Assembly: GCA_021773195.1 (NCBI GenBank) | Contig: JAJFKN010000020.1 | Location: 7,570 to 71,569 of the forward strand | DNA length: 64,000 nt | Reading direction: 5' to 3' | DNA from: Gammaproteobacteria bacterium | GTDB taxonomy: Bacteria; Pseudomonadota; Gammaproteobacteria; JAKBBU01 | Shown: positions 7,351 to 7,496 of the stretch, piece by piece | Numbering within the stretch: position 1 is the first letter of the stretch | Layout: every line of letters starts with the position of its first letter | Program-made: the position numbers and the translations under genes | Notes under the pieces: generated by a model | Databases searched by the model: none | Told to the model about the DNA's origin: nothing | Seen by the model: only the letters and a program-made list of their open reading frames with translations

Positions 7351-7496
7351 TAGGGCCTGTTTACAATTCGCTAGGTTGAGACGTAGGTTGTTGATTGTTG
7401 AGCACTGTAGCGCAGTTTACACGTCGGTAAATGAGCAACGGCGCGCAGATAATCAACAAGATACGGCCTGCCTAGTAGAGTTGTAAACAGGCCCCT
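7351..7496. mobile_element. 146-bp MITE with ~20-bp terminal inverted repeats (AGGGCCTGTTTACAATTCGC ... rc)
   Basis: 14-bp perfect TIR arms at 7353-7366 and 7481-7494. The whole element recurs inverted at 48436-48585 with about 85-90% identity by eye. It fills the gmhB-start / MFS-stop intergenic space. Confidence 0.75.

What the first reader, a model, noticed from the sequence alone, without database searches (positions are those of the whole stretch)
7351..7496. 146-bp MITE with 20-bp terminal inverted repeats inserted exactly between gene ends; three loci
The sequence AGGGCCTGTTTACAATTCGC...(106 bp)...GCGAATTGTAAACAGGCCCT has 14-20-bp perfect terminal inverted repeats. It occupies the entire gap between the gmhB start codon (7343) and the stop of the upstream MFS gene (7499).

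A second copy lies at 48436-48585 in inverted orientation. It fills the gap between the corA start (48390) and the stop of a lipoprotein gene (48592). Internal segments match over the whole length by eye (e.g. CGTGTAAACTGCGCTACAGTGCTC, GGCCGTATCTTG, CAACCTAGCGAATTGTA).

A solo TIR (AGGGCTGTTTACGATTCGC) sits 16 bp upstream of the MFS gene at 3378.

In all three cases the element abuts the 5' end of a minus-strand gene and replaces any recognisable Shine-Dalgarno or promoter sequence. Transcription and translation initiation of gmhB, corA and the MFS pump may therefore be supplied or modulated by the element.
Basis: seen in the sequence. Interest (0 to 1): 0.65.

Follow-up and report, generated by a model that had tools for sequence, protein, structure and literature searches.

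The report
New hairpin-forming MITE family, TA-flanked
The repeat is real: it is a roughly 145-bp non-coding, hairpin-forming miniature transposon (MITE) of a previously undescribed family, also found in other uncultured gammaproteobacteria, but the idea that it supplies promoters or ribosome-binding sites to its neighbours is mostly unsupported.

Summary
The window holds two full copies: A at 7351-7498 and B at 48440-48584, inverted, 82-86% identical. It also holds two 30-nt remnants of the same end, at 3392-3423 and 16232-16261. Each full copy is an imperfect palindrome over its whole length.

A metagenome scan with only the 13-nt termini found four full-length homologues (about 70% identical) at unrelated intergenic sites of a different uncultured gammaproteobacterium. 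It also found a second element type with the same termini but an unrelated interior. TA flanks 10 of 12 ends of the main family. No reading frame is conserved.

Between the two subfamilies, 13-15 of 55 stem pairs changed on both sides while keeping the pairing. The foldback is therefore maintained, not accidental.

No transposase partner, empty site or genome-wide copy number could be obtained.

- The perfect TIR in A is 14 bp, and the quoted right-end string is not in A.
- corA and the 2110-3378 MFS gene keep their own Shine-Dalgarno sequences.
- Only gmhB truly abuts the element.

Side finding: an 8.9-kb accessory islet splitting the glyS-gmhB operon is bounded by inverted element ends.

Verdict: a new member of a known kind, of modest interest.

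The parts
7351..7498 (+). Full element copy A (L arm at left, R arm at right), with a TA flank on the left and C+TTA on the right. It forms a whole-length imperfect hairpin.
   Evidence: nhmmer E 9e-42. RNA fold -76 kcal/mol on the + strand and -62.4 on the - strand; z -9.7 and -8.0.
7353..7366 (+). Left terminal inverted repeat core, GGGCCTGTTTACAA.
   Evidence: Identical in all four Ga0155588 copies and in the two Ga0126336 elements.
7481..7494 (-). Right terminal inverted repeat core (TTGTAAACAGGCCC on the + strand).
48440..48584 (-). Full element copy B, inverted relative to A, with TA on both flanks. It is a decayed copy: 12 broken stem pairs and degraded termini.
   Evidence: E 1e-36; fold -52.7 kcal/mol, z -4.3.
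3392..3423 (+). Solo L-type end, about 30 nt (TAGGGC-TGTTTACGATTCGCAACTTTGCG...), 13-16 nt upstream of the ATG of the MFS/Atg22-like gene. By eye it is slightly closer to the Ga0155588-type L arm than to A.
   Evidence: nhmmer E 0.024, model positions 3-32.
16232..16261 (-). Solo L-type end, about 30 nt, lying between two convergent stop codons. The HTH gene's TAG (16239-16241) falls inside it. The glyS TAG (16259-16261) is made of the flanking TA plus the first G of the element.
   Evidence: I7: 28 nt, 82%; 3 mismatches, chance 0.00; E 0.067.
7499..16231 (.). Accessory islet between the two outward-facing L ends. It carries MFS+PadR, AbiEii plus a partner, a second MFS, HigB+HTH, a 518-aa unknown and a toxin-antitoxin-like pair. 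GC is 0.375-0.42 against 0.44-0.46 outside. It separates glyQS from gmhB-plsC. This is context; mobilisation by the ends is inferred.
   Evidence: glyQ-glyS-gmhB-plsC are contiguous in Acidihalobacter ferrooxydans.
6804..7343 (-). gmhB-like HAD phosphatase. Its ATG lies 7 nt from the TA flank of copy A, with no evident Shine-Dalgarno sequence (GGCCC TA ATGAACC ATG).
47308..48390 (-). corA. The likely true start is 48375 (GGGAGG-N7-ATG). Copy B lies 49-64 nt upstream.

Best explanation
This is a family of non-autonomous DNA transposons (MITEs) of about 145 bp.

**Anatomy (shown)**
- Each copy has conserved termini (TA)GGGCCTGTTTACAATTC...GAATTGTAAACAGGCCC(TA).
- It has no coding capacity.
- Its interior pairs with itself along the whole length.

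**Mechanism (inferred)**
- Copies are mobilised in trans by a transposase that has not been found. That enzyme would recognise the 14-20-nt ends and integrate at TA dinucleotides.
- TA targeting would explain why copies land in AT-rich intergenic DNA, and often on or beside TAA/TAG stop codons.

**The foldback**
- The foldback is a maintained property of the propagating lineage (shown).
- Individual inserted copies then decay. B is an old, probably immobile copy, and the two 30-nt ends are deletion remnants (inferred).

**Effects on neighbours (inferred, incidental)**
- A copy that is co-transcribed places a very stable hairpin in the 5' or 3' untranslated region.
- Here this matters most for gmhB, whose start codon is 7 nt from the base of hairpin A. 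The islet has also cut gmhB off from the glyQS operon.
- Two outward-facing ends bracket that 8.9-kb islet and may have moved it as one unit. This is inferred and unproven.
For: **Dispersed copies**
- Two full copies lie 41 kb apart in opposite orientation, with two end remnants.
- A scan of JGI metagenomes with only the termini (13+13 nt, gap 90-120) gave six elements, where about 0.01 would be expected by chance.
- Four elements, on three contigs of Ga0155588, align to A over the full length at about 70% identity. The element is the only DNA shared with the window.
- That host has different neighbouring genes (ispG, uvrA, dciA, POT, M48). Its ispG is at best 81% identical to anything in 5.8 billion proteins, with Coxiellaceae and Endozoicomonas among the named hits.
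- Two elements of Ga0126336 share the terminal 14-15 nt but have an unrelated palindromic interior. One set of ends on different interiors is the usual MITE pattern.

**Flanks and position**
- TA flanks 10 of 12 ends. TA frequency in the window is 0.066, giving P about 1e-10.
- All eight insertions are intergenic although about 85% of the window is ORF.

**Non-coding**
- The 36-aa frame shared by A and B is 72% identical in protein against 86% in DNA. It is broken by stops in the Ga0155588 copies.

**Foldback maintained**
- 94.5% of cells are paired, and 15 of 55 pairs changed on both sides, against 0-4 in slid controls and 0 of 500 shuffles.
- A versus the Ga0155588 consensus: 13 compensated pairs, 3 one-sided, 1 broken.
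- The internal-loop pattern of the apical 50 nt is the same in both subfamilies.

**Decay after insertion**
- Single-copy changes within Ga0155588 break pairs 6 times out of 9. B has 12 broken pairs.
Against: - No transposase with these ends was found. The window has no DDE transposase, only a YhgA/Rpn-like PF04754 protein at 35773-36684. No further matching ends occur in the 45 kb of Ga0155588 loci.
- No empty site could be examined, because neither host has a close relative in the collections. TA may therefore be the outermost part of the repeat rather than a target duplication, and mobility is inferred rather than shown.
- Copy number in the source genome is unknown. A 20-mer of the core gave only two chance hits in the species-representative genomes.
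- The copy A right flank (C+TTA) and the L008 right flank (TC) are irregular.
- Near-complete compensation in the stems, and a lower substitution rate in paired than in unpaired columns within Ga0155588 (9/110 against 8/32), could also mean the hairpin is used by the host. That is not excluded.
Confidence: 0.8

Rival explanations
1. The element is mainly a structured RNA (or single-stranded DNA) module kept for a host function. Examples would be an mRNA-stability or processing hairpin like ERIC or Correia transcripts, or a small RNA gene. On this view its dispersal is secondary.
For: - Strong covariation preserves the stems and the same internal-loop layout across about 30% sequence divergence.
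- G-U pairs make the L-to-R strand more stable than its complement in 5 of 6 copies. One G-U pair (columns 26/132) is invariant.
- Fewer single-copy substitutions occur in paired columns.
- MITE transcripts are known to alter mRNA decay (PMC3184786, citing De Gregorio 2002-2006).
Against: - Orientation relative to flanking transcription is mixed. A and L008 would be transcribed as the weaker strand, B and L012 as the stronger one.
- Single-copy mutations mostly break pairs, and B has lost a third of its folding energy.
- No Rfam family matches. The only hit is a plant miRNA hairpin at E 0.12.
- No conserved promoter and no U-tract terminator were found.
- The G-U strand bias is only 4:0 in the consensus, which is not significant.
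Confidence: 0.2
2. One reading: the element provides or controls transcription and translation initiation of gmhB, corA and the MFS pump.
For: - The gmhB ATG lies 7 nt from the end of A, with no Shine-Dalgarno sequence.
- The islet separates gmhB-plsC from glyQS, with which they are contiguous in Acidihalobacter. gmhB therefore needs a new promoter or read-through from the MFS gene.
- A 9/12 promoter-like site in A's R arm points at gmhB.
- Correia elements are known to carry functional promoters (PMC3184786).
Against: - corA and the 2110-3378 gene have their own Shine-Dalgarno sequences and spacers.
- The promoter-like match in B's terminus points away from corA.
- The -10-like hexamer is not conserved in L008 and L010, the metagenomic copies that sit next to gene starts.
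- Several ends abut stop codons instead of starts.
Confidence: 0.12
3. The repeats are recombination sites (integron attC-like or integrase attachment sites) marking cassette or island boundaries, not transposon ends.
For: - They are imperfect palindromes of attC-like size.
- One full copy and one remnant bound a toxin-antitoxin-rich islet.
Against: - The ends are (TA)GGGCC. There is no RYYYAAC/GTTRRRY core, read directly.
- There is no array of same-orientation sites, and no integrase in the window.
- The Ga0155588 copies lie between ordinary housekeeping genes.
Confidence: 0.04

Closest known systems
ERIC / IRU (enterobacterial repetitive intergenic consensus, about 127 bp)
   Same: - A short non-coding imperfect palindrome over its whole length.
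- Strictly intergenic and co-transcribed with its neighbours.
- TIRs with 5'-TA-3' at both termini (PMC3184786).
- Stem-preserving substitutions have been reported for ERIC (Wilson and Sharp 2006; my recollection, and listed in that review's references).
- No known transposase.
   Different: - No sequence similarity. The element finds nothing in 5,426 E. coli genomes, which carry ERIC.
- The termini differ, the length is about 145 bp, and the hosts are uncultured deep-branching gammaproteobacteria.
Correia elements (CREE/NEMIS) of Neisseria, 104-157 bp
   Same: - TA-flanked MITE of the same size.
- Frequently next to or overlapping gene ends.
- Folds into long hairpins when transcribed.
- Can influence neighbouring genes (PMC3184786).
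   Different: - Correia pairing is mainly in the 26-bp TIRs, with an IHF site and functional promoters inside.
- Here the whole length pairs. Only the ATCAA half of an IHF consensus is present, and no conserved promoter was seen.
- There is no sequence similarity (comparison with the Correia sequence is from memory, not tested).
Coxiella burnetii QMITE1 and QMITE2 (PMC5896051)
   Same: MITE families in a gammaproteobacterial lineage. Coxiellaceae is among the few named homologue sources for the second host. They are intergenic or gene-overlapping, and some are transcribed as small RNAs.
   Different: - QMITE1 is 300-400 bp with 2-4-bp direct repeats of variable sequence.
- QMITE2 is 150-190 bp with 7-11-bp direct repeats.
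- The present family has TA flanks.
- Sequence comparison was not possible with the tools left.
MITE pairs that mobilise intervening DNA (integron mobilisation units; MITEs straddling integrons in Enterobacter cloacae and Acinetobacter: Poirel 2009, Gillings 2009, as cited in PMC3184786)
   Same: Two element ends in inverted orientation bracket an 8.9-kb accessory segment inserted at a precise point in a conserved operon.
   Different: - Here one of the two copies is reduced to 30 nt.
- No transposase is known.
- Movement as a single unit is only one of two readings.

Membership tests
MITE (generic definition, PMC3184786) | Small (under about 400 bp) and without a transposase gene or conserved ORF | tested here: met
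   Copies are 143-148 bp. The only shared frame in A and B is non-conservative (72% protein against 86% DNA identity) and is interrupted by stops in the Ga0155588 copies.
MITE (generic definition, PMC3184786) | Terminal inverted repeats | tested here: met
   The 14-nt perfect core GGGCCTGTTTACAA is at both ends of A and of all six metagenomic elements. It extends to about 20 nt in Ga0155588.
MITE (generic definition, PMC3184786) | Multiple dispersed copies at unrelated loci | tested here: met
   Two full copies and two remnants in the 64-kb window. Four copies on three Ga0155588 contigs with unrelated flanks. The genome-wide count is unknown.
MITE (generic definition, PMC3184786) | Target-site duplication flanking each copy | tested here: inconclusive
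   TA sits at 10 of 12 ends (P about 1e-10). Without an empty site, TA cannot be told apart from the outermost base pair of the repeat.
MITE (generic definition, PMC3184786) | Evidence of mobility (filled versus empty sites) | not testable with these tools
   The closest gmhB homologue is 66% identical and the closest ispG homologue 81%. No strain-level relatives are available. The operon reconstruction glyS-TAA-TGAACC-ATG-gmhB is inference only.
MITE (generic definition, PMC3184786) | A cognate autonomous IS with the same ends | tested here: not met
   None in the window or in the fetched loci. ERIC and Correia also lack a known partner.
ERIC | Sequence homology to the ERIC consensus | tested here: not met
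   blastn with 11-nt words against all complete E. coli genomes gave no match at E up to 1.
Integron attC site | R''/R' core sites (RYYYAAC ... GTTRRRY), tandem cassette array, nearby intI | tested here: not met
   The ends read TAGGGCC / GGCCCTA. The two copies are 41 kb apart and inverted. No integrase domain was found in the annotated ORFs.
Any curated RNA family (Rfam 15) | Score at or above the family's gathering threshold | tested here: not met
   No hits in the whole window. In the permissive search the only hit was MIR7996 at 20.9 bits against a gathering score of 119.
Coxiella QMITE1/QMITE2 | Size and direct-repeat length as described in PMC5896051; sequence homology | tested here: not met
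   Size and direct repeats differ from the published description. Sequence homology could not be tested.

The most novel reading that the evidence does not exclude
The foldback is not just a by-product of transposon ends. It would be a functional structured nucleic acid, with a conserved apical domain, conserved bulges and a favoured strand. That structure would either be the actual substrate of an unusual hairpin-recognising mobilisation mechanism, or act as a portable RNA regulator. In addition, pairs of these ends could carry multi-gene islands: here an 8.9-kb efflux and toxin-antitoxin islet placed exactly on the TA of the glyS stop codon.
Probability: 0.15. Interest if true: 0.55.

Novelty: new member of a known kind. 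Interest (0 to 1): 0.3.

Why it matters
- It adds a well-delimited MITE family from poorly sampled, probably host-associated gammaproteobacteria.
- It provides a reusable signature: the ends GGGCCTGTTTACAA plus TA.
- Stem covariation is unusually clear. That makes the family a good test case for why bacterial MITEs keep whole-length hairpins.
- Locally, it explains the odd gmhB upstream region. It also marks the boundaries of an accessory islet that split the conserved glyQS-gmhB-plsC operon.
- It does not reveal a new kind of system.

Tried and rejected
**Searches that found nothing useful**
- The genome-contig scan with the conserved 20-mer core CACTGTAGCGCAGTTTACAC gave only two chance matches, inside a coding gene of Geobacteraceae and Desulfuromonadaceae MAGs.
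- Peptide trick: I searched the 43-aa frame through the element for spuriously called ORFs in 5.8 billion proteins. There was no candidate.
- Viral contigs were scanned with the 17-mer end and with two terminus-pair patterns. All gave zero hits.
- Plasmids gave only a 20-nt chance hit in Rhizobium. E. coli genomes gave nothing.
- Literature string searches for the ends found no MITE paper, only unrelated primers.
- Rfam gave nothing, at gathering thresholds or in the permissive search.

**Attempts at relatives and empty sites**
- The closest relatives are too distant for empty-site comparison.
- The 20-kb neighbourhoods of four ispG relatives and three gmhB relatives hold no copy.
- Extending beyond the window through the last ORF failed because the protein is not on record.

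**Readings rejected**
- A coding small protein.
- RNA-strand-specific selection judged from A versus B alone: there is one compensatory pair, and the G-T bias is opposite in the two copies.
- The long conserved central 24-mer between A and B as evidence of function. It is not significant at 16% divergence (my estimate).
- A conserved internal promoter.
- A full IHF site. Only ATCAA is conserved, read by eye.

**Lead not pursued**
- From memory, the GGnnCTGTT-type end plus TA/TNA flanks resembles IS5 (IS427/IS1031) and PIF/Harbinger-Tourist ends, as well as TA-targeting IS630/Tc1-mariner elements. This is a lead only and was not tested.

Full report
**1. What is in the sequence**

Positions 7351-7498 read TA-GGGCCTGTTTACAATTCGCTAGG...CCTAGTAGAGTTGTAAACAGGCCC-C-TTA. 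A second copy lies at 48440-48584 in the opposite orientation, with TA on both sides. The two copies align end to end:
- 86% mean column identity in MAFFT;
- 82% over 133 nt in the repeat finder;
- 86% over 107 nt by BLAST, E 6e-22 against the window.

The quoted right end GCGAATTGTAAACAGGCCCT is not in copy A, which reads GAGTTGTAAACAGGCCCC. The perfect inverted repeat in A is 14 bp (7353-7366 and 7481-7494).

The repeat is not limited to the ends. The whole element folds on itself:
- A gives -76 kcal/mol on the + strand and -62 on the - strand, with z -9.7 and -8.0.
- B is a decayed version at -53 kcal/mol, z -4.3, with mutated termini.

The solo end at 3394-3412 is real. A profile built later places it at 3394-3423 (E 0.024). 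That remnant was also picked up independently as a 28-nt, 82% inverted match. It matches the 20-mer end with three mismatches, where none is expected by chance. Both remnants are of the 'L' arm type. An independent Logan assembly of run SRR15505513 reproduces 4219-8496, including copy A, at 100% identity.

**2. Gene context**

- a HAD/GmhB phosphatase at 6804-7343;
- an MFS_1 transporter at 7499-8731;
- CorA at 47308-48390;
- an MFS/Atg22-like protein at 2110-3378.

The 87-aa ORF at 48592-48855 has a signal peptide and an LSSC lipobox.

Copy A fills the whole 155-nt gap between the MFS stop and the gmhB ATG. The upstream region reads GGCCC-TA-ATGAACC-ATG, with no Shine-Dalgarno sequence. Copy B does not abut corA. 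There are 49 nt to the first ATG. A better start at 48375 is preceded by GGGAGG at the right spacing. The 2110-3378 gene has AAGGA before its ATG, between the ATG and the solo end.

The remnant at 16232-16261 sits between two convergent stop codons. The glyS TAG is built from the flanking TA plus the first G of the element.

**3. Relatives elsewhere**

The source organism is isolated. The best gmhB homologue among 5.8 billion proteins is 66% identical, and the named hits are assorted Gammaproteobacteria. A 20-mer of the core found only chance matches in species-representative genomes.

A scan of JGI metagenomes asking only for the two 13-nt termini 90-120 nt apart returned six elements. By my estimate about 0.01 would be expected by chance.

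- **Ga0155588: four elements on three contigs.** These are L008 11534-11675, L009 11692-11836, L010 1761-1904 and L012 10551-10695. They are homologous to A along the whole length at about 70% identity. The element is the only DNA these contigs share with the window. Their neighbours are ordinary housekeeping genes: ispG, a POT transporter, a Na/Ca exchanger, dciA, uvrA and an M48 peptidase. The host is another deep gammaproteobacterium. Its ispG is at best 81% identical to anything known, with Coxiellaceae and Endozoicomonas among the named hits.
- **Ga0126336: two elements.** L007 and L011 have the same terminal 14-15 nt but a completely different palindromic interior.

Shared ends on different interiors, dispersed at unrelated intergenic sites in different hosts, is the classic behaviour of MITE families that use one type of transposase.

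**4. Features of the family**

- **TA flanks.** TA flanks 10 of 12 ends of the main family. TA frequency in the window is 0.066, so P is about 1e-10.
- **Intergenic position.** All eight insertions (six full copies and two remnants) are intergenic, although about 85% of the window is ORF.
- **Both kinds of gene end.**
  - Copies occur upstream of gene starts: gmhB at 7 nt, the Na/Ca exchanger at 19 nt, and ispG, dciA, M48 and corA at about 50 nt.
  - They also occur at or on stop codons: the MFS gene at 0 nt, the lipoprotein gene at 7 nt, and overlaps with the L009 200-aa ORF and glyS.
  - The '5' end of a minus-strand gene' pattern is therefore not a property of the family.
- **Non-coding.** The 36-aa frame common to A and B is less conserved as protein than as DNA. 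It is interrupted by stops in Ga0155588.

**5. The hairpin is maintained**

On the six-sequence alignment A4, the consensus fold has 55 pairs.
- 94.5% of cells are paired.
- 15 pairs changed on both sides with pairing kept.
- The same counts with partners slid by 1-3 columns are 0-4 pairs and 35-40% paired. No column shuffle out of 500 reaches the observed values.

Comparing A with the Ga0155588 consensus, 41 of 142 columns differ. In the stems, 13 pairs are fully compensated, 3 are changed on one side with pairing kept, and only 1 is broken.

The pattern of bulges and internal loops is the same in both subfamilies, especially in the apical 50 nt, despite heavy sequence change. The arms are therefore not simply being copied onto each other.

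Changes private to single copies mostly break pairs (6 of 9), and B has 12 broken pairs. My reading is that the foldback is selected in the lineage that propagates, and that inserted copies then decay.

A function for the host is not excluded:
- Private changes are rarer in paired than in unpaired columns (9/110 against 8/32).
- G-U pairs favour one strand in 5 of 6 copies.

However, the numbers are small, and orientation relative to neighbouring transcription is mixed. A and L008 would be transcribed as the weaker strand, B and L012 as the stronger one.

**6. Regulatory claims**

The simple scans find no terminator-like site in either copy. They find one marginal promoter-like site inside A (TTTACA-18-TATCTT, 9/12) that points towards gmhB. 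The hexamers are kept in B. In L010 and L008, the metagenomic copies that lie next to gene starts, the -10 position reads TAGGCA and TACCCA. A built-in promoter is therefore not a conserved feature.

gmhB remains the one interesting case. Its start codon is 7 nt from the foot of a -62 kcal/mol hairpin in its own mRNA strand. It has also been separated from glyQS.

**7. The islet**

In Acidihalobacter ferrooxydans, glyQ, glyS, gmhB and plsC are contiguous and overlapping. The nearest sequence homologues of gmhB have other contexts, so this is a common arrangement rather than a universal one.

In the window, plsC-gmhB (6051-7343) and glyS-glyQ (16259-19224) are separated by 8.9 kb. That stretch consists of copy A followed by:
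- MFS plus PadR;
- AbiEii plus a partner;
- a second MFS;
- HigB plus an HTH protein;
- a 518-aa unknown;
- a toxin-antitoxin-like pair.

Its GC content is 0.375-0.42 against 0.44-0.46 outside.

The outer boundaries are two L-type ends facing outwards (7353 and 16259), each with TA outside. Removing 7353-16259 and one TA gives ...GAC-TAA-TGAACC-ATG..., a plausible glyS-gmhB junction. This fits movement of the whole segment as a MITE-bounded unit. MITE pairs straddling integrons are a precedent (PMC3184786).

It fits equally well two separate TA insertions into an islet that was already there. Removing A alone gives MFS-TAA-TA-ATGAACC-ATG, which is also plausible. I cannot decide between the two readings.

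**8. Comparison with known families**

The element behaves like ERIC and Correia elements. It is short, non-coding, TA-flanked, intergenic, hairpin-forming, and without a known transposase (PMC3184786, PMC5896051).

It is not a member of either by sequence:
- It finds nothing in 5,426 E. coli genomes, which carry ERIC.
- It finds nothing in plasmids or viral contigs.
- It has no Rfam match.
- Its ends do not appear in the searchable literature.

The Coxiella QMITEs differ in size and in direct-repeat length. It lacks attC core sites, cassette arrays and an integrase.

The window contains no DDE transposase, only a YhgA/Rpn-like protein.

**9. Verdict**

Some details are wrong: the TIR length and the quoted right end, 'fills the gap' for corA, and the loss of Shine-Dalgarno sequences or promoters at all three genes.

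This is a new family of a familiar kind. The points of some interest are the very clean stem covariation and the islet bounded by element ends. Mobility, the target duplication, the transposase and the copy number remain inferred or unknown.

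Noticed in passing
L007 378-520 and L011 1136-1258 (JGI Ga0126336): A second palindromic element type (117-137 bp between the matched ends) has the same terminal 14-15 nt (A)GGGCCTGTTTACAA but an unrelated GGAGGGAGGGTTACCC... 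interior. L007 is flanked by TAA on both sides. This suggests a wider group of MITEs using the same ends.
   Followed up: partly
window 3519-3677; 46741-46792; 20582-20610: A GC-rich hairpin, TGGATTCCCGCCTTCGCGGGAATGACGTT, occurs identically at 3522 and 46741, with a variant at 20582. At 3519-3677 it is followed by about seven tandem 21-bp units (GGAATGACGTTAGTGAGTACA). At 46756-46792 it is followed by two 19-bp units. This is a separate small repeat family.
   Followed up: no
window 5891-5984, 20380-20467, 41788-41889, 62150-62169: Another dispersed intergenic repeat family of about 90-100 nt. It is built from CACCCCGGAATTTTTCG...GAAAAATGTCCGGGG and the palindrome TCCCCTCAGGGGACAGG, with parts rearranged between copies. 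The genome is rich in small palindromic repeats.
   Followed up: no
window 45239-45329: An isolated near-perfect hairpin with 37-nt arms (95% complementary) and a 17-nt spacer, about -72 kcal/mol. It lies just downstream of the AAA_14/DUF4143 gene (45347-46657, minus strand).
   Followed up: no
window 39984-40025 and 41714-41755: 42-bp direct repeats (88% identical) bracket an AbiEii/AbiEi toxin-antitoxin pair (40023-41677), as if the module were a cassette. A second AbiEii gene lies in the islet at 9536-10555.
   Followed up: no
window 20293-20382: A tandem duplication of a 45-bp unit (98% identical) in the long non-coding stretch after glyQ.
   Followed up: no
L009 1-150 (contig Ga0155588_1043, immediately right of the L008 copy): A 75-bp unit is repeated twice in tandem, starting directly at the irregular right end (GGCC|TCC) of that MITE copy.
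   Followed up: no
window 35773-36684: The only transposase-named ORF in the window is a YhgA/Rpn-like PD-(D/E)XK protein (PF04754, E 3e-29). It has no matching inverted repeats around it and is unlikely to be the partner of the MITE.
   Followed up: partly
window 48375-48390: The corA ORF as listed starts at ATG 48390. The ATG at 48375 is preceded by GGGAGG at 7 nt and is the more likely start.
   Followed up: partly
window 4379-5722 and 23522-24856: A 447-aa protein with a thaumatin-family domain (PF00314, E 2e-19), which to my knowledge is uncommon in bacteria, and a 444-aa Fic-domain protein. Together with the many toxin-antitoxin modules, they hint at a host-associated lifestyle.
   Followed up: no
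window 3392-3423: By eye, the solo end next to the 2110-3378 gene matches the Ga0155588-type L arm (ATTCGCAAGATTGCG) slightly better than the window-type L arm (14/18 against 11/18). This would suggest that more than one subfamily has been present in this genome.
   Followed up: partly
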